From an uncultured Clostridia bacterium (GTDB taxonomy: Bacteria; Bacillota; Clostridia; Lachnospirales; Anaerotignaceae): DNA of 64,000 bases. The notes below the pieces were generated by a model that saw nothing but the letters and a program-made list of their open reading frames with translations, ran no database searches and was not told the DNA's origin. A program made the position numbers and the translations under genes. Positions 53,333 through 58,623 of the stretch are shown here, piece by piece (within the stretch, counting starts at the first letter, position 1; each line of letters opens with the position of its first letter). The DNA lies in the NCBI GenBank assembly GCA_944381455.1, contig CALWLF010000057.1, forward strand, positions 15,461-79,460, written 5' to 3'.

Positions 53333-53719
53333 TCAACGGATGAATTTATCAATGGCATCATTCAAACTGGAAAGCGCCAGTTGCTGAACAGCAGGATCTT
53401 CTCCGCTATTGGCGTGTATGACACATTCGTTAATGTGGTTTTTTAAAATCAGTTTCCCCAAATTGTTCAAGGAGGATTGCACAGCCGATATTTGAATGAG
53501 AATTTCTGTACAGTCCCGCTGTTCTTCCAGCATTTTTTTGATGGAGGTGGCATGGCCGATGATGATGGAAGTGCGGTGAATCAGCTTCTTATATTCCTCT
53601 GGTGAATGGGCGTGGGCATGGACTGTTCCATCTTCATGGATATGCATACGGAAATCATCAGATGCTTCTGGGGCAGCCGTGACAGGACTAGGCGTCGCCT
53701 TTTTTTTCTGATTACTCAT
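53333..53719 (-). CDS. CsoR/RcnR-family metal-sensing repressor with His-rich N-terminal extension
   Basis: The core IIIGHATSIKKMLEEQRDCTEILIQISAVQSSL...LKNHINEC aligns with CsoR/RcnR. The N-terminus contains MHIHEDGTVHAHAH. Start ATG 53719 has a GGGAGGTG RBS. Confidence 0.85.
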   Translation of the reverse strand: MSNQKKKATPSPVTAAPEASDDFRMHIHEDGTVHAHAHSPEEYKKLIHRTSIIIGHATSIKKMLEEQRDCTEILIQISAVQSSLNNLGKLILKNHINECVIHANSGEDPAVQQLALSSLNDAIDKFIR

Positions 53720-53750
53720 TGAAAACACCTCCCTTTTTGTTTACTATTAT

Positions 53751-53792: not shown

Positions 53793-53814
53793 ATAGTCCT
53801 GGGGGTGGGGATAT
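53793..53814. promoter_or_regulatory. Degenerate CsoR-type box overlapping the M20 RBS and start codon
   Basis: atagtcctgggggtggggatat. The minus strand reads ATATCCCCACCCCCAGGACTAT and shares the ATATCCCC half-site with the 54913 palindrome. Confidence 0.3.
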
Positions 53815-54829
53815 GGAACGGCTCATGGCATATCTGATTCGGCTGATGGAATATAATACAACAAGCGATACGGGAAACGAGGCAGCCTGTGCGGCGTTTA
53901 TAGAGCAGACACTGAGGCAATATGGCATAAAAACAAAAATTTGGACCAAGGGGAACCAGCACAGCTCTTTGGCGGCGTGGATTCCTGGCAGGCAGAAAAA
54001 AACGCTGGTGCTCCATGGACACATAGACACAGCGCCATACGGGGATCGGGCAGGATGGCTGTTTCCGCCAGAGCGCCCCAGCAGAAAAAACGGCTGTCTT
54101 TGCGGTCGAGGTGCGCTGGACTGTAAAAGCCAGGTGGCCGTTTGGATGAAGCTGATGATAGAAATACAATGTTCTGGCCAAGTTCCCGAACGGTCAGTGC
54201 TGTTTTTGGCCACTGGCGATGAGGAAAACGGCGGAGAAAATGGACTTTCTTATGTTATAGAGCAGTCGGACTGCCTGGATCATAGTTTTTTAGTGTTGGG
54301 CGAAGGCGGCGGGTTTCCTTTTCCCTTTCAGGATCAACTGTTTTATACGTTTCAGACGGGAGAGCGGACTGATGAATGGACTGCTGCTCCGGAAGAAGAA
54401 AATCCCGTGGAGATACTGGAGGAGGGTATCCGCAAGGGGTATTACAGCGAGGAGGTAAAAGCGTATTTTTCTTACGATTTGAGTGCACAGGGACGCCGGT
54501 TAGAGATGGAGCCGCTCTATCGGGGGATGGGGAAAAATTTTTCATCCATGCCGGATACTGCTGTTTTTTCTCAGTATGGTCCAGTGTTTCAAAGGGCGCT
54601 TTCGGCTTTTGTGCCAGAGGCAAAACTGATGCCTGTGATTACGCCGGGTTTCAGCGACAACCGCTATTTTCGCGGCCTTGGCATCCCTACCATCGGCTTT
54701 TTTCCGCTGGATAGAAAAAACCATTTAAGTGGAATTCACGGCAAAAATGAGTATATCAGTGAGCAGTCACTTTCTCTGGCGGACAAGGTGCTCGGTTGTG
54801 CAGTCAATGAGTTAATTTTAACTAAGTAA
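53813..54829 (+). CDS. M20-family metallopeptidase/deacylase
   Basis: HGHIDT, GRGALDCK and GDEENGG metal and catalytic motifs. Start reset to ATG 53813. Confidence 0.8.
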   Translation: MERLMAYLIRLMEYNTTSDTGNEAACAAFIEQTLRQYGIKTKIWTKGNQHSSLAAWIPGRQKKTLVLHGHIDTAPYGDRAGWLFPPERPSRKNGCLCGRGALDCKSQVAVWMKLMIEIQCSGQVPERSVLFLATGDEENGGENGLSYVIEQSDCLDHSFLVLGEGGGFPFPFQDQLFYTFQTGERTDEWTAAPEEENPVEILEEGIRKGYYSEEVKAYFSYDLSAQGRRLEMEPLYRGMGKNFSSMPDTAVFSQYGPVFQRALSAFVPEAKLMPVITPGFSDNRYFRGLGIPTIGFFPLDRKNHLSGIHGKNEYISEQSLSLADKVLGCAVNELILTK

Positions 54830-54867: not shown

Positions 54868-54896
54868 TTGACAGAAGAGAAAAAGAGTGCTATATT
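54868..54896 (+). promoter_or_regulatory. Sigma-A-like promoter TTGACA-17-TGcTATATT upstream of the P-type ATPase
   Basis: Exact -35, 17-nt spacer and extended -10. Confidence 0.65.
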
Positions 54897-54912: not shown

Positions 54913-54931
54913 TATCCCCTACGGGGGGATA
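54913..54931. promoter_or_regulatory. CsoR-family-type operator palindrome TATCCCC-TAC-GGGGGGATA
   Basis: AT-rich arms flank a C-tract and a G-tract. It sits about 17 nt downstream of the -10, between the promoter and the ATPase start. Confidence 0.6.
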
Positions 54932-55004: not shown

Positions 55005-56933
55005 ATGGGGAAAAAGGATTCTGGTATTAACTTTAGCATGGTTGCATACCCGGCAGCTTGTTTGATTACAATTTTGCTTGGTGCGTTTTTCGATTTTGCA
55101 ATCCCGGGAACGCTCCCGTTCCGCTTCTCCATTATTCCTTTGGTGCTCAACGGCGGCAAATGTGTGATTGATGCCGTGCAGGCAACCATCACAAAACGGA
55201 AGATTACGGCCGGGATGCTGGTGGTATTGGCTCTGATTGGCTGTACCTATGTAGGAGAATATCTCTCCGGCGCCATCACTGCTTTTATGATGATCATTGG
55301 CGAAGTGTTGGAAGACTTTACTATGCTGAAAACGAAAAATGCCGTCAGCGAATTGGTAAAACTGGTTCCAACCACCTGCCGCAAACTGGTTAACGGCCAG
55401 TTCCAGCAAGTATCCATTAAAGAAGTAAGAAAAGGCGATATCATCCAGGTGCAGGCCGGTGAAAAAATCGCCGTTGACGGTGTCATCACCAAGGGCCAGG
55501 CCGCCATCAATGAAGCAGCCATCACCGGTGAATCGATGCCAGTGGATAAAAAAGTAGACGATAAGGTATTTGTTGGTACGTTAAATGAAAACGGCGTCAT
55601 TGAAATTCGGACTGAAAAACTGGGCGGCGACACGGTGCTTGGTAACATCATCAAGACCGTCAAAGCAGCACAGGATAACAAAGGCAATGCTCAGAAAGTT
55701 GCTGACAAATTCTCGGAATTTTTCCTTCCTGTTATTTTGATCATTGCGGCAATCGTATGGTTTGTTACCGGCGAAATCCTCCGCGTGATGACCGTTTTGG
55801 TTATTGCTTGTCCTTGCGCCCTGGTGCTGGCAACGCCAACCGTTGTGATTGCAGCCGTTGGTAACGCAGCAAAGAAAGGCGTTTTGATCAAAGGCGGCGA
55901 CGCCATCGAAAGCGCAGCCAAAGTAACCACCATTTGCTTTGACAAAACGGGTACCATCACAAAAGGAACGCCGCAGGTGGTTTCCACCTTCATTATGGAC
56001 GGTGTAGACAAGAACGAATACTATAAAACCATTGCTATGGTGGAAAAGAACTCCAGCCACCCCATTGGCAAGGCCATCATGAAAAACTTGACGGCAAACA
56101 AATATGTCAATACGGCAGATGTGCCCAATGCGGAATTTGAGATGCTCTTTGGTCGTGGTGTTCGCGCTACTTTGGATGAAAACACCTATGAAGTATCCAA
56201 CAAGAAATGCCTGGCCGATTTGAAAAATGTGCCGGCAAAAATCCAAAGCTATATCAAAAAAGAAGAATCTTTGGGCCGTACCACCATGGTGGTTATTGAA
56301 AACGGCAACGTATTGGGCGGTATTGCAGTAGCCGATACCATCCGCGAAAACGTAAGAGAAACGGTAGAAGAATTCAAGAAACTGGGTGTCAAACATGTGG
56401 TTATGCTGACAGGCGATAATGAATTTACGGCAAAAGCCATCTGTGATGAAGCGGGTATTACAGAATTTCGTGCCAACTTGCTGCCGGAAGACAAATTGGA
56501 AGCCATCCGCCGTTTCAAAGAACAGGGCGAAGTGGTTGCCATGGTTGGCGATGGCGTTAACGACGCACCGGCTCTGGCCCTTGCCGATGTTGGGATCGCC
56601 ATGGGTGCTGTGGGTACTGACGTTGCAGCCGAAGCTTCTAACATCACTTTGATGAGTGATAACATTGGGATGCTGCCATCCACCTTGGCCATCTGCCAGA
56701 AATCTTATGCAATGATTAAACAGAACATCATCGTCTTTGCGGTGTTTGTCAACATCGCCGGTGTGGCGCTGTCCAGCTTGGGCTTCTTAAACCCAATCGC
56801 CGCCGCTTTGGTTCACAATGCATCTTCCATCTTCGTTGTGCTGAACTCCTCCAGAATGTTGTCCTGGAAATATAAAGGCAATGACACTGCCACCATCAAA
56901 CAGGTGCCAAAACAACAAAGACGTGCAGCCTGA
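55005..56933 (+). CDS. P1B-type heavy-metal-translocating ATPase without an N-terminal metal-binding domain
   Basis: TGES, CPC in TM6, DKTGTIT and GDGVNDAPAL. There is no GMxCxxC/HMA segment before TM1. GAAGGAGG RBS. Confidence 0.93.
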   Translation: MGKKDSGINFSMVAYPAACLITILLGAFFDFAIPGTLPFRFSIIPLVLNGGKCVIDAVQATITKRKITAGMLVVLALIGCTYVGEYLSGAITAFMMIIGEVLEDFTMLKTKNAVSELVKLVPTTCRKLVNGQFQQVSIKEVRKGDIIQVQAGEKIAVDGVITKGQAAINEAAITGESMPVDKKVDDKVFVGTLNENGVIEIRTEKLGGDTVLGNIIKTVKAAQDNKGNAQKVADKFSEFFLPVILIIAAIVWFVTGEILRVMTVLVIACPCALVLATPTVVIAAVGNAAKKGVLIKGGDAIESAAKVTTICFDKTGTITKGTPQVVSTFIMDGVDKNEYYKTIAMVEKNSSHPIGKAIMKNLTANKYVNTADVPNAEFEMLFGRGVRATLDENTYEVSNKKCLADLKNVPAKIQSYIKKEESLGRTTMVVIENGNVLGGIAVADTIRENVRETVEEFKKLGVKHVVMLTGDNEFTAKAICDEAGITEFRANLLPEDKLEAIRRFKEQGEVVAMVGDGVNDAPALALADVGIAMGAVGTDVAAEASNITLMSDNIGMLPSTLAICQKSYAMIKQNIIVFAVFVNIAGVALSSLGFLNPIAAALVHNASSIFVVLNSSRMLSWKYKGNDTATIKQVPKQQRRAA

Positions 56934-56965
56934 TATGAGAAGAGACAGAAAGCGAGGCGACCAAT

Positions 56966-57112
56966 ATGCATGAAGGAAAACATGGTATTTTAGATGGTTT
57001 GGAAGACATGGATGAATTGTTTGGCTTGGAAGAAGAGCATGAGGCAGAAAAAGAAACAGAGCCAAAGAAGAAAAAATCCTTTTTAGGATTTGGCAAAAAG
57101 CAGGAGAAGTGA
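56966..57112 (+). CDS. Small MHE-peptide, copy 1 (48 aa, not in ORF track)
   Basis: MHEGKHGILDGLEDMDELFGLEEEHEAEKETEPKKKKSFLGFGKKQEK. GAGGCG-N6-ATG RBS. It has a protein-level paralog at 58316 that differs only synonymously in the conserved blocks. Confidence 0.7.
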   Translation: MHEGKHGILDGLEDMDELFGLEEEHEAEKETEPKKKKSFLGFGKKQEK

Positions 57113-57133
57113 TTGCATAGTAGCTTTCTCAAA

Positions 57134-57185
57134 ATAGAACAAAACCGCGTATCCATGGAAAATGAGGTATGCGGTTTTGTTCTAT
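57134..57185 (+). terminator. Hairpin terminator after MHE-peptide 1
   Basis: Perfect 15-bp stem atagaacaaaaccgc/gcggttttgttctat. There is no clear T-run. Confidence 0.55.
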
Positions 57186-57494
57186 CCAAAGGGAAAAAAC
57201 AATGCACGAAATGTGGAAAAAAATGTTTGTTATTTGACTCTAACCTTCGACTGCCGGTTGTCTTCCTCTTATTGTAATTAGTTTATTTTAACTAACTTAC
57301 AGTCCTATTTTTTGGTTAAAACAACAGAATAAATCTAGTTACAAGACAAAAAATCAATTGTGTATTTTTACTGAACAAAATAAATAAAATGTATTGTTTT
57401 ATGGCTGTTTTATTTTTTGATTATTCGAAATAACGTATTATTTGGAAAGTAGCACATAAAAACAAAAAAATTAAAACTTTTTTCATGAAAATTA

Positions 57495-57523
57495 TTTACA
57501 ATTCTGAAGAAACGTGATAAGAT
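57495..57523 (+). promoter_or_regulatory. Promoter-like TTTACA-17-TGaTAAGAT
   Basis: 17-nt spacer and extended -10, at the end of the AT-rich region upstream of the 224-aa ORF. Confidence 0.5.
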
Positions 57524-57587
57524 GATAACCGTGGTAAGGATATACAAAAAAGGCAAACCGATGGATCAAAAGAGGGGGATGAAAAGT

Positions 57588-58262
57588 ATGTCGAAAAAAG
57601 GCTCGTTTATGTTCATTAAAAATGACAAAATCAAAGCTGTTTACTGCCACCGCAATGCACAGCTGGAAGGGCTTGGCAAACGTGTGGTGAAGATGCTTCG
57701 CTACTTTGACCGGGATGAATTAGATGCGTTGTTTGACTATCTGATTCCGGTGGACGAAGATACGCCCATGACGCCAGAACAAATTGAGGCATACAAGGAA
57801 TATATGCCAGAACAGTGCTGGAAAGAAGATTTGGATTGGACCACGGCTTTGATCTACACCAAAGATCCAACGCAGCCAATCATGGATGGGTTCCCGTATT
57901 TTGTGGACTATGCAGGTTTCCTTCCTTCCTGGAGAAACCGCTACCGCTACATGATCAACCTGGATACCAACACCTTCCAGGTGGCCAAAGCAGGCTTGGA
58001 AGTGATCGGCCAGGAAAGCGAAGAATTTTTCAAAGAAGTGGAATATCCAGATTCCATCGTGCCATATGTTCTGGGTGCTTGGCCGCTGGATGCCATCCCC
58101 GATGACTGGATGGAACAGTGCAAAGAAAAATGGGCACATTCCGTCATTAGATGTTCGCCAGAAGATGGAATTATCATTGATGCAAACCGTTATGACAGCG
58201 ACTATGAAGGCCAGCGGACTTACAGCAAGATTAAATATTATATTGGGATTGAAGGATATTGA
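57588..58262 (+). CDS. Hypothetical cytoplasmic protein (224 aa), no recognised domain
   Basis: Long ORF with a GGGGG RBS 9 nt before ATG 57588 and no TM segment or signal peptide. Followed 53 nt later by MHE-peptide 2. Confidence 0.75.
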   Translation: MSKKGSFMFIKNDKIKAVYCHRNAQLEGLGKRVVKMLRYFDRDELDALFDYLIPVDEDTPMTPEQIEAYKEYMPEQCWKEDLDWTTALIYTKDPTQPIMDGFPYFVDYAGFLPSWRNRYRYMINLDTNTFQVAKAGLEVIGQESEEFFKEVEYPDSIVPYVLGAWPLDAIPDDWMEQCKEKWAHSVIRCSPEDGIIIDANRYDSDYEGQRTYSKIKYYIGIEGY

Positions 58263-58315
58263 TATCATAAAGTCAATCAAAAAATAATATTCATTCATTA
58301 GAGGAGGCGCTTACT

Positions 58316-58465
58316 ATGCATGAAGGTAAACACGGTATTTTAGATGGTTTGGAAGACATGGATGAACTGTTTGGTCTGGAAGATGACCACGATCACGAAG
58401 CAGAGAAAGAAAAAGACACGAAAAAGAAAAAATCTTTCTTGGGCTTTGGAAAAAAAGACAAATAA
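58316..58465 (+). CDS. Small MHE-peptide, copy 2 (49 aa, not in ORF track)
   Basis: MHEGKHGILDGLEDMDELFGLEDDHDHEAEKEKDTKKKKSFLGFGKKDK. AGGAGGCG-N6-ATG RBS. Confidence 0.75.
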   Translation: MHEGKHGILDGLEDMDELFGLEDDHDHEAEKEKDTKKKKSFLGFGKKDK

Positions 58466-58579
58466 TGTAACAAGAGGCCAGGCTCCTTCTTTTTCATAGA
58501 TTAAGAAGAAAGCCTAAAGGCTGAAAGAAAACGCCTGATTCGCGCAGCGATTGCGCCAACAAAGGGTTTTACATACAAA

Positions 58580-58623
58580 AACCGGTGACGACAAAGATTT
58601 TGTTGTTGCCGGTTTTTGTTTTT
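58580..58623 (+). terminator. Intrinsic terminator after MHE-peptide 2
   Basis: 14-bp stem with G-U pairs, aaccggtgacgaca/tgttgttgccggtt, plus TTTTTGTTTTT. Confidence 0.65.

What the first reader, a model, noticed from the sequence alone, without database searches (positions are those of the whole stretch)
56966..58465. Two unannotated paralogous 48/49-aa peptides whose differences are almost purely synonymous
Both fall below the 60-aa ORF-track cutoff. Copy 1 (56966-57112) is MHEGKHGILDGLEDMDELFGLEEEHEAEKETEPKKKKSFLGFGKKQEK. Copy 2 (58316-58465) is MHEGKHGILDGLEDMDELFGLEDDHDHEAEKEKDTKKKKSFLGFGKKDK. The first 22 codons encode identical residues but differ at 5 nucleotide positions, all synonymous (gga/ggt, cat/cac, ttg/ctg, ggc/ggt, ttg/ctg). 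The C-terminal KKKKSFLGFGKK block is also identical in protein yet carries 7 synonymous differences. Both copies share the same GAGGCG-N6-ATG ribosome-binding geometry, and each is followed by a strong hairpin. This is the signature of purifying selection on a translated product, not of a recent DNA repeat. One copy closes the P-type ATPase unit and the other closes the unit of an unknown 224-aa protein. I do not recognise the family.
Basis: seen in the sequence. Interest (0 to 1): 0.78.

Follow-up and report, generated by a model that had tools for sequence, protein, structure and literature searches.

The report
Small partner peptide of metal pump
The two tiny genes are real and under strong protein-level selection. 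They belong to an undescribed family of 29-80-residue acidic, often histidine-rich peptides that in Clostridia and spirochaetes almost always sit beside one type of heavy-metal export pump, so they are probably that pump's metal-binding helper.

Summary
Copy 1 (56966-57112) and copy 2 (58316-58465) differ by 17 synonymous and 6 non-synonymous changes. dN/dS is about 0.025 (p = 3e-9) and the flanks are unrelated.

They are not strain-specific. I found 107 protein clusters, all unnamed or "hypothetical", with no Pfam or NCBIfam model and no paper containing the motif. All share an almost invariant start, MHEGKHGILDGLEDMDELFG. An acidic linker follows, then a variable tail: His/Asp repeats (56%), CxC motifs, or a basic-hydrophobic end such as KKKKSFLGFGKK.

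In 17 of 18 species genomes the gene lies in a cluster with one ATPase subtype. This subtype has CPC in TM4, HNxSS in TM6 and no N-terminal metal-binding domain, which matches the "P1B-6-like" type of M. tuberculosis CtpC. The cluster usually also holds an M20 hydrolase, a CsoR/RcnR-type repressor with an H-C-H-C fingerprint and its operator, and sometimes the 224-aa protein. Gene order varies. The minimal loci contain only pump plus peptide.

Best reading (inferred, not shown): a disordered metal-binding accessory of the pump, analogous to but unrelated to mycobacterial PacL1. The roles of the M20 enzyme and the 224-aa protein are unexplained, and in one genome the 224-aa protein is fused to the peptide module.

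The parts
53333..53728 (-). CsoR/RcnR-family (PF02583) metal-sensing repressor with a His-rich N-terminal extension. Its W-X-Y-Z fingerprint is H-C-H-C (InrS-like).
   Evidence: Pfam E = 3e-22.
53813..54829 (+). Divergent M20 (ArgE/DapE-like) metallohydrolase, co-conserved with the pump. Its substrate is unknown.
   Evidence: Pfam PF01546 E = 4.5e-23. It scores below every NCBIfam cut-off. It is present in 15 of 18 species loci, and its reading frame often overlaps the ATPase stop.
54868..54896 (+). Sigma-70-type promoter (TTGACA-17-TATATT, with TG extension) for the ATPase-peptide 1 unit.
   Evidence: 11 of 12 consensus matches.
54913..54931 (+). CsoR/RcnR-type operator palindrome TATCCCCTACGGGGGGATA, lying between the promoter and the ATPase.
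   Evidence: It occurs once in the window and 0 times in 100 shuffles. The same C-tract/G-tract palindrome follows a promoter directly upstream of the peptide or the ATPase in at least 15 other loci.
55005..56933 (+). P1B-type heavy-metal ATPase without an N-terminal metal-binding domain. It has CPC in TM4 and HNASS in TM6 (P1B-6-like, the CtpC type). The best solved relative is the P1B-4 pump sCoaT.
   Evidence: TIGR01525 E = 6e-171. 7qbz E = 1e-99 over residues 15-622. The motifs are invariant in the 18 cluster ATPases that could be read, 17 loci plus the window. N-termini are short and basic.
56954..56959 (+). Shine-Dalgarno GAGGCG of peptide copy 1, 6 nt before the ATG.
   Evidence: Read directly from the sequence.
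56966..57112 (+). Peptide copy 1 (48 aa): N-terminal module MHEGKHGILDGLEDMDELFG, an acidic linker with one His, and the basic-hydrophobic tail KKKKSFLGFGKKQEK.
57134..57184 (+). Strong hairpin/terminator that closes the ATPase-peptide 1 unit.
   Evidence: -36.4 kcal/mol, z = -8.35. It is conserved in L016.
57495..57523 (+). Candidate promoter (TTTACA-17-TAAGAT, with TG) for the U224-peptide 2 unit. It sits in a 475-nt AT-rich spacer with no CsoR-type operator.
   Evidence: The block is conserved in L016. No operator was found within 3 mismatches.
57588..58262 (+). U224: a 224-aa cytosolic protein of unknown function. It is a conserved optional member of the cluster. Its fold is predicted with high confidence but has no relative in the PDB.
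   Evidence: No Pfam or NCBIfam hit. 29 homologues. AF2 pLDDT 93, pTM 0.90. Best Foldseek TM is 0.19 or less. In L031 it is fused in frame behind the peptide's N-module.
58304..58309 (+). Shine-Dalgarno GAGGCG (within GAGGAGGCG) of peptide copy 2, 6 nt before the ATG.
   Evidence: Read directly from the sequence.
58316..58465 (+). Peptide copy 2 (49 aa): the same N-module, a linker with HDH, and the tail KKKKSFLGFGKKDK.
58575..58619 (+). Intrinsic terminator (20-bp stem plus U-run) that closes the U224-peptide 2 unit.

Best explanation
SHOWN. Both ORFs encode a translated, strongly constrained small protein. It belongs to an undescribed family found in Clostridia and Spirochaetota. The family is genomically tied to one subtype of heavy-metal P-type ATPase: CPC in TM4, HNxSS in TM6, no N-terminal metal-binding domain. 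In this window copy 1 sits in the same unit as the pump, behind a promoter and CsoR/RcnR-type operator. Copy 2 sits behind U224 and has its own candidate promoter.

INFERRED. The peptide is a cytosolic, mostly disordered, metal-binding accessory of that pump.
- The invariant His2, Glu3 and His6 (with the N-terminal amine in most members) form a small divalent-metal site like the MHE site of HypA.
- Residues 8-20 (ILDGLEDMDELFG) form a short amphipathic acidic helix. This helix docks on a conserved partner, most likely the basic N-terminus or MB' platform of the pump.
- The acidic and His/Asp/Cys-rich middle collects extra metal in most family members. This part is nearly lost in the window's two copies.
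- The basic-hydrophobic tail (KKKKSFLGFGKK) resembles the MinD membrane-targeting sequence and keeps the peptide at the membrane.
- When metal (probably Ni/Co/Zn-type divalent ions) rises, the repressor releases the operator. Pump and peptide are then made together, and the peptide hands metal to the pump or stabilises or activates it.

This role matches the one shown for PacL1 with CtpC in M. tuberculosis, but it is carried out by an unrelated sequence.
For: Coding and constraint:
- dN/dS is 0.007-0.17 across paralogues and orthologues. The first 20 codons show zero replacements between the four window/L016 copies against 4-6 synonymous changes per pair.
- GGAGG-type ribosome-binding sites precede every family member read except L023.

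Linkage to the pump:
- The ATPase (54-97% identical) is in the locus in 17 of 18 GTDB species.
- Minimal loci hold only ATPase plus peptide (L033, L035).
- Gene order is shuffled (peptide before or after the pump) but the linkage is kept.
- All cluster ATPases that could be read carry IACPCALVLATP and HN[AIC][SA]S, and have short basic N-termini with no metal-binding tail.
- PMC9374683 defines CPC plus HN as the 'P1B6-like' CtpC type, whose members pair with small PacL proteins.
- PMC8880997 notes that no chaperones are known for the HMBD-less P1B-4 pumps and that the MB' platform lacks a known partner.

Metal binding:
- 60 of 107 clusters have at least 4 His after the N-module (up to 16), and 20 have CxC.
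- H2, E3, G4 and H6 are invariant.
- The HypA MHE motif binds Ni(II) through the N-terminal amine, His2 and Glu3 (PMC7055735).

Regulation:
- A promoter followed by a TATCCCC-N-GGGGATA palindrome lies directly upstream of the peptide-ATPase or ATPase-peptide unit.
- The linked repressors all have the H-C-H-C fingerprint.

Disorder and tail:
- AF2 gives pLDDT 64, with a helix only at residues 12-19.
- The tail resembles the E. coli MinD membrane-targeting sequence KGFLKRLFGG (PMC5471200). Family tails include KKGFLKWLFRKK, KGMLGKLFGKK and KKKKFGLFKKK.
Against: - There is no experimental or structural evidence for peptide-pump contact. Complex modelling was not possible with these tools.
- The window's copies have only 1-2 His beyond the N-module, so they would be poor metal collectors.
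- 30 of 107 clusters are N-module plus a polyacidic tail only.
- Four clusters (the Ruminococcus gauvreauii/Lawsonibacter group) carry a 15-18-aa N-terminal extension with Leu in place of Met1. The N-terminal amine therefore cannot be a universal ligand.
- In L031 the N-module is fused to U224, and no ATPase lies within the 14 kb read. This points to U224 or M20 as possible partners.
- The co-conserved M20 hydrolase and U224 have no role in this model.
- The metal is not identified. [quoted passage not shown]
Confidence: 0.5

Rival explanations
1. The peptide works with the M20 hydrolase and/or U224 rather than with the pump. It could be their substrate or carrier (processed into a smaller metal-binding product, or carrying a group that M20 removes). 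It could also be a regulatory or targeting subunit of U224.
For: M20 is present in 15 of 18 species loci, and its frame often overlaps the ATPase stop. In L031 the N-module is fused in frame to U224 next to M20, with no ATPase in the 14 kb read. The ancestral order ATPase-U224-peptide places the peptide right behind U224, as for copy 2 here. A conserved N-terminal 'leader' with a variable C-terminal 'core' recalls peptide precursors. M20 enzymes that act on a small acidic carrier protein exist; the [LysW]-lysine hydrolase family is a weak hit.
Against: Loci with only ATPase plus peptide exist (L033, L035, and apparently L023). U224 is present in only 5 of the 18 species loci. The variable part is low-complexity His/Asp/Lys sequence, not a defined core. 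No other modifying enzymes are conserved in the cluster.
Confidence: 0.2
2. It is a free cytosolic metal buffer or storage peptide, like Hpn or a metallothionein. It is co-induced with the pump but does not touch it.
For: Most members have long His/Asp runs and CxC motifs. It is co-regulated by the metal-sensing operator.
Against: This does not explain the near-invariant 20-residue N-module across two phyla, while the supposed metal-binding part is the most variable and is absent from 30 of 107 clusters and nearly absent from the window's copies. A pure buffer would not need such tight linkage to one pump subtype.
Confidence: 0.15
3. It is a cis-acting leader peptide whose translation controls expression of the downstream ATPase (metal-dependent attenuation).
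For: In about half of the species the ORF is the first gene behind the operator, 26-500 nt upstream of the ATPase.
Against: In the window and at least six other lineages the ORF lies downstream of the pump, and here it is followed by terminators. Selection acts on the amino-acid sequence of the first 20 residues, not on a C-terminal arrest motif. The C-terminal half varies freely in length. No Rfam element is present.
Confidence: 0.05
4. The ORFs are chance reading frames inside a DNA or RNA-level repeat and are not translated.
For: They are short and low in complexity, and they fall below common gene-calling cut-offs.
Against: 17 synonymous against 6 non-synonymous changes (p = 3e-9). The flanks are unrelated. 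107 homologous clusters keep the motif and frame, most intact from the same Met, and every locus read except L023 has a strong ribosome-binding site.
Confidence: 0.02

Closest known systems
PacL1/PacL2/PacL3 (DUF1490) of Mycobacterium tuberculosis, and the related DUF6110 proteins
   Same: Small (about 90 aa), largely disordered, Glu-rich proteins encoded next to and co-expressed with P1B ATPases. The prototype partner CtpC is the same CPC + HN 'P1B6-like' pump type. PacL1 and PacL3 carry a His/Asp metal-binding motif (DLHDHDH, DDGHDH), as in the HDHDH tails of this family. They are membrane-associated and act as a chaperone or scaffold needed for pump function (PMC9374683; PMC13460109).
   Different: No sequence similarity: no Pfam hit to DUF1490 or DUF6110 at E<=10 for 34 members. 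There is no transmembrane helix; at most there is a short basic-amphipathic C-terminal tail. The conserved element is an N-terminal 20-residue module that PacL lacks. The metal-binding region lies in the middle rather than at the C-terminal end. The family occurs in Clostridia and Spirochaetota, not Actinobacteria. The partner pump here has no N-terminal MBD, whereas the CtpC MBD is essential.
HypA N-terminal MHE nickel site
   Same: Met1-His2-Glu3 at the extreme N-terminus, invariant in the family. In HypA this binds Ni(II) through the N-terminal amine, the His2 and Glu3 backbone, and side chains (PMC7055735).
   Different: HypA is a folded protein of about 115 aa with a Zn(CxxC)2 domain and works in hydrogenase and urease maturation. 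There is no homology beyond three residues. Four family clusters have LHE inside a longer ORF.
CopZ/Atx1-type metallochaperones and the N-terminal tails of P1B-4 ATPases
   Same: A small soluble metal carrier encoded with its P1B pump under a metal-sensing repressor. It has an acidic surface proposed to dock on the basic MB' platform. P1B-4 pumps carry Met/Cys/His/Asp/Glu-rich N-terminal tails of similar length (PMC8880997), so this peptide looks like such a tail made as a separate protein.
   Different: No ferredoxin fold and no CxxC motif. The peptide is disordered. No fusion of this module to an ATPase was found among 5.8 billion proteins.
Hpn / Hpn-like histidine-rich nickel-storage peptides of Helicobacter (from my own knowledge)
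   Same: Cytosolic peptides of about 60 aa dominated by His, with some Cys.
   Different: Hpn has no conserved docking module and is not linked to a P-type ATPase. The window's copies are not His-rich.

Membership tests
PacL / DUF1490 (and DUF6110) | Sequence match to Pfam DUF1490 (PF07371) or DUF6110 | tested here: not met
   hmmscan of the window peptides at E<=1 and of 34 family members at E<=10 gave no hit to either family.
PacL / DUF1490 (and DUF6110) | N-terminal transmembrane helix | tested here: not met
   The sequences have no run of 15 or more hydrophobic residues. AF2 predicts only an 8-residue helix at residues 12-19.
PacL / DUF1490 (and DUF6110) | Encoded in an operon with a P1B (P1B-6-like) ATPase | tested here: met
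   17 of 18 species loci, plus L033 and L035. The pump carries CPC + HNxS.
PacL / DUF1490 (and DUF6110) | C-terminal His/Asp metal-binding motif (PacL1 DLHDHDH) | tested here: inconclusive
   HDHDH-type runs occur in 60 of 107 clusters, but they are internal. Window copy 2 has only DDHDHE and copy 1 only EEHE. Metal binding was not measured.
P1B-6-like ATPase (CtpC type), for the neighbouring pump | CPC in TM4 together with H-N-x-(S/T) in TM6 | tested here: met
   IACPCALVLATP and VHNASS are present here and in every cluster ATPase that could be read. The definition comes from PMC9374683 and PMC13460109.
P1B-6-like ATPase (CtpC type), for the neighbouring pump | N-X18-H-N spacing between TM5 and TM6 | tested here: not met
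   By my count on VNIAGVALSSLGFLNPIAAALVHN the spacing is N-X20-HN, two residues longer than the published hallmark.
P1B-4 ATPase (sCoaT type), for the neighbouring pump | SPC in TM4 and HEGxT in TM6 | tested here: not met
   sCoaT is the best PDB match (7qbz, 1e-99). In the alignment SPC aligns to CPC and HEGST aligns to HNASS. Only the His is kept.
HypA-type N-terminal nickel site | Met1-His2-Glu3 at the mature N-terminus | tested here: met
   Present in both window copies. 103 of 107 clusters have M at this position, and 94 of them begin there exactly. Four have LHE inside a longer ORF.
HypA-type N-terminal nickel site | Ni(II) binding by that site | not testable with these tools
   This needs ITC, XAS or NMR on synthetic peptide.
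CsoR/RcnR (DUF156) repressor, for the neighbouring regulator | PF02583 domain with X-Y-Z ligands Cys-His-Cys/His | tested here: met
   PF02583 E = 3e-22. H-C-H-C is conserved in 12 cluster-linked homologues. The metal cannot be deduced from this fingerprint (PMC4235346).

The most novel reading that the evidence does not exclude
The 20-residue MHEGKHG...LFG module is a new, portable 'plug'. It senses a divalent metal (Ni, Co or Zn) at its tip and docks onto pumps that lack their own metal-binding domain. If so, this would be the first dedicated cytosolic metal donor or regulator for the P1B-4/P1B-6 branch of pumps. Together with the novel-fold U224 protein and the M20 hydrolase it would form a previously unrecognised four-part metal-efflux machine in gut Clostridia and spirochaetes.
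Probability: 0.3. Interest if true: 0.8.

Novelty: new variant of a known kind. Interest (0 to 1): 0.66.

Why it matters
How HMBD-less divalent-metal P1B pumps (P1B-4, P1B-6 and relatives) acquire their metal is an open question. The sCoaT structure paper says no chaperones are known for them and that the role of the MB' docking platform 'may need to be revisited' (PMC8880997). The only precedent for a small disordered partner is PacL in Actinobacteria, described in 2022.

This family supplies a second, unrelated and very simple example, as short as 29 residues, with a sharply defined 20-residue module. That makes the question directly testable with synthetic peptides, point mutants and pump assays. 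The family occurs in human and animal gut anaerobes such as Intestinibacter, Ruminococcus gauvreauii, Lawsonibacter and Lientehia. The finding also shows what standard 60-aa ORF cut-offs miss, and it flags two further uncharacterised partners: the novel-fold U224 protein and a divergent M20 hydrolase.

Tried and rejected
- Pfam and NCBIfam scans of both peptides and of U224 gave nothing. A Pfam scan of 34 family members at E<=10 gave only compositional hits (ZIP His-loop, EF-1beta acidic region) and no DUF1490 or DUF6110.
- A PDB profile search with the family gave only a compositional match to the eEF1-delta acidic DLFG segment (E = 0.3). I rejected this as homology.
- A Foldseek search of the U224 model against the PDB found no match (TM 0.19 or less).
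- An Rfam scan of the whole window found no riboswitch or any other family. I had been looking for a NiCo riboswitch.
- A full-text search for MHEGKHG found 0 papers.
- I looked for fusions of the module to ATPases and found none among all hits. The only fusion found is to U224, in L031.
- I looked for a second CsoR-type operator upstream of U224-peptide 2 and found none within 3 mismatches.
- AF2 on the peptide alone gave low confidence, as expected for a disordered peptide.
- Modelling a peptide-pump complex was not possible with the tools provided.
- The leader-peptide, DNA-repeat and pure metal-buffer readings were considered and set aside for the reasons given under the rival explanations.
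Full report
**1. The observation.** A codon-by-codon comparison gives 16 codons with purely synonymous changes and 6 with replacements. The first 22 codons carry 5 synonymous and no replacement changes. The KKKKSFLGFGKK block carries 7 synonymous changes. By Nei-Gojobori counting Sd=17, Nd=6, dN=0.053, and dS is saturated. dN/dS is about 0.025, and the excess of synonymous change has p = 3e-9. The flanking DNA does not align. Both copies have GAGGCG 6 nt before the ATG. Both are followed by strong hairpins: 57134-57184 (-36.4 kcal/mol, z = -8.35) and 58575-58619 with a U-run (within a fold of z = -5.2).

**2. A real family.**
- A search of 5.8 billion proteins with copy 1 found 24 small proteins. 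An exhaustive HMMER search of 1.8 billion representatives found 9. A profile search found 106. After filtering for the motif, 107 clusters remain.
- All are unnamed or 'hypothetical'. None has a Pfam domain, and none is fused to a larger known protein.
- The N-terminal 20 residues are nearly invariant: H2, E3, G4, H6, I8, D10 and D14 are invariant, and K5, G7, L9, D16, F19 and G20 are at least 90% conserved.
- After an acidic linker the sequence varies. 60 of 107 clusters have at least 4 His (up to 16, often HDHDH runs). 20 have CxC motifs (GCGCNC, NCNCGKK). 39 have a basic-hydrophobic tail (KKKKFGLFKKK, KGMLGKLFGKK, KKGFLKWLFRKK, or KKKKSFLGFGKK as here). 30 are only the module plus a polyacidic tail, as short as 29 aa.
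- The window's copies belong to a His-poor, basic-tailed subgroup.
- Every family member read in its locus has a GGAGG-type ribosome-binding site, except L023.
- Neither Pfam, NCBIfam, the PDB nor the literature knows the family.

**3. Genomic context.**
- In 18 GTDB species the peptide gene lies in a recurring cluster. The species include Lachnospiraceae, Oscillospiraceae, Christensenellaceae, Intestinibacter, Wukongibacter, Lientehia and Ruminococcus, plus two Spirochaetota.
- Seventeen of the 18 loci contain an ATPase 54-97% identical to the window's. Fifteen contain the M20 hydrolase, nine a CsoR-family repressor, and five the U224 protein.
- Gene order is not fixed. The peptide is last in M20-ATPase-(U224)-peptide (window, L001, L006, L008, L010, L012). 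It is first, directly behind the operator, in peptide-ATPase-M20 (L018, L020, L021, L025, L027-L029, L032).
- The smallest loci contain only pump and peptide (L033, L035).
- L016, an uncultured Clostridia MAG with a 97.5% identical pump, has the same two-copy layout. Its copy 1 and copy 2 are each closest in their variable linker and tail to the window's copy 1 and copy 2. The duplication is therefore older than the split of these two species.
- Relative to the ancestral ATPase-U224-peptide order, the window has gained copy 1, a terminator and a 475-nt AT-rich spacer with its own conserved promoter (TTTACA-17-TAAGAT, 57495-57523).

**4. The pump.**
- It is a P1B ATPase (TIGR01525). Its best solved relative is the P1B-4 pump sCoaT, aligned over its whole length including helices MA and MB (7qbz, 1e-99).
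- It carries CPC instead of SPC in TM4 and HNASS instead of HEGST in TM6. Both motifs are invariant in all cluster pumps that could be read.
- CPC plus an HN motif is exactly what Boudehen et al. call 'P1B6-like', the type of M. tuberculosis CtpC (PMC9374683; PMC13460109). The published N-X18-HN spacing is X20 here.
- The N-termini are short, lysine-rich and devoid of His or Cys.

**5. Regulation.**
- A near-consensus promoter (54868-54896) is followed by the palindrome TATCCCCTACGGGGGGATA (54913-54931). The palindrome is unique in the window and absent from 100 shuffles.
- The same promoter-palindrome arrangement sits just upstream of the peptide ATG in loci where the peptide comes first, or upstream of the ATPase otherwise.
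- The linked repressors are PF02583 proteins with a conserved HxH at position W and Cys, His, Cys at X, Y, Z. This is the InrS-like pattern.
- The InrS paper warns that this pattern does not identify the metal (PMC4235346).
- No such operator precedes U224-peptide 2, so the two copies may be expressed under different conditions.

**6. Mechanism.**
- Shown: the peptide is coding, constrained, co-inherited with this pump subtype, and (for copy 1 and for most orthologues) in a unit behind a metal-repressor operator.
- Inferred, metal site: His2, Glu3 and His6 make a small metal site. The MHE N-terminus of HypA binds Ni(II) through the amine, His2 and Glu3 (PMC7055735).
- Inferred, docking: residues 8-20 have hydrophobic positions I8, L9, L12, M15, L18 and F19 on one face and Asp/Glu on the other. 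AF2 predicts the only helix at residues 12-19 in an otherwise low-confidence, disordered chain. That pattern fits a short docking motif. The short basic N-terminus and the K/R-rich MB' platform of the pump are plausible acceptors (PMC8880997).
- Inferred, metal collection and membrane contact: the His/Asp/Cys middle adds metal capacity in most species. The basic-hydrophobic tail resembles the MinD membrane-targeting sequence KGFLKRLFGG (PMC5471200).
- The nearest functional precedent is PacL1. It is a small, disordered, Glu-rich, membrane-anchored protein with a DLHDHDH motif, and it is required for CtpC-dependent zinc resistance (PMC9374683).
- The family fails the PacL membership tests (no DUF1490 or DUF6110 match, no TM helix). 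I therefore file it as an analogue, not a member.

**7. What does not fit.**
- The M20 hydrolase is a divergent ArgE/DapE-like enzyme that scores below all NCBIfam cut-offs. U224 is predicted with pLDDT 93 but has no PDB fold match. Both are co-conserved and neither is explained.
- In L031 the N-module is fused in frame to U224. The fused protein starts MHEGKHGIIDEMDDNFELFADDEG, continues through the linker SVRRS into the U224 domain, and is 40% identical to the window's U224. M20 lies next to it and no ATPase lies within the 14 kb read. A role with U224 or M20 therefore remains a serious rival.
- Four clusters carry an N-terminal extension with Leu replacing Met1, behind a good ribosome-binding site. 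The free N-terminal amine cannot be essential everywhere.
- The metal is unknown. Hints towards Ni, Co or Zn are the P1B-4/6 affinity of the pump, the His-rich tails, the H-C-H-C sensor, and Nik/Opp-type ABC importers next to the cluster in L012 and L033.

**8. Verdict.** The peptides are members of an undescribed small-protein family that is a dedicated companion of a poorly understood class of metal pumps. I rate it a new variant of a known kind (P-ATPase-associated small disordered metal-binding partners) and of substantial interest. The function is inferred from context only.

Noticed in passing
window 57588-58262 (U224); homologues P0032-P0060: The 224-aa protein forms a well-conserved family (29 clusters) with no Pfam or NCBIfam model. 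Its AF2 model is confident (pLDDT 93, pTM 0.90) but has no structural relative in the PDB (best TM 0.19 or less). Invariant or near-invariant residues include Y19, H21, R22, D56, E57, M61, T62, Q65, D107, R118 and E138, which suggests an active or binding site.
   Followed up: partly
L031 7001-7813: A natural in-frame fusion of the peptide's N-terminal module (MHEGKHGIIDEMDDNFELFADDEG) to a U224 homologue, next to an M20 gene. No ATPase lies within the 14 kb read.
   Followed up: partly
window 54913-54931, and upstream regions in L018, L020, L021, L023-L029: A conserved C-tract/G-tract palindrome (TATCCCC-N3-5-GGGGATA) sits immediately after a consensus promoter. It is presumably the operator of the H-C-H-C CsoR/RcnR-family repressor. 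L018 and L028 carry a second, weaker copy close to the peptide's ribosome-binding site.
   Followed up: partly
window 57190-57590: The AT-rich spacer between peptide 1 and U224 contains blocks conserved with L016. They include an inverted repeat AATTAGTT-N6-AACTAACT (about 57276-57297) and the motif TATTTGGAAAGTAGCACATAAAA upstream of the TTTACA/TAAGAT promoter. These may be binding sites for a different regulator.
   Followed up: no
L023, L035 (Ruminococcus gauvreauii group); P0026, P0031, P0072, P0075: This subgroup makes a longer protein (69-74 aa). The conserved module is preceded by 15-18 residues, and Met1 is replaced by Leu (TTA in L023, not a start codon). A good ribosome-binding site sits at the upstream ATG.
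   Followed up: partly
L012 1-1826 and L033 6512-11606: Opp/Dpp/Nik-type ABC importer genes (SBP_bac_5, two permeases, two oligo_HPY ATPases) lie directly beside the pump-peptide cluster in two unrelated loci. L012 also has a CDF exporter with an ArsR-type regulator next to it.
   Followed up: no
window 55005-56933 and all cluster ATPases: The pump subtype has invariant CPC (TM4) and HN[A/I/C][S/A]S (TM6), and its TM5-TM6 spacing is N-X20-HN rather than the published N-X18-HN. It aligns best to the P1B-4 structure sCoaT. It may deserve its own subgroup between P1B-4 and P1B-6.
   Followed up: partly
window 1-64000: No Rfam family reaches its gathering score anywhere in the 64-kb window.
   Followed up: no
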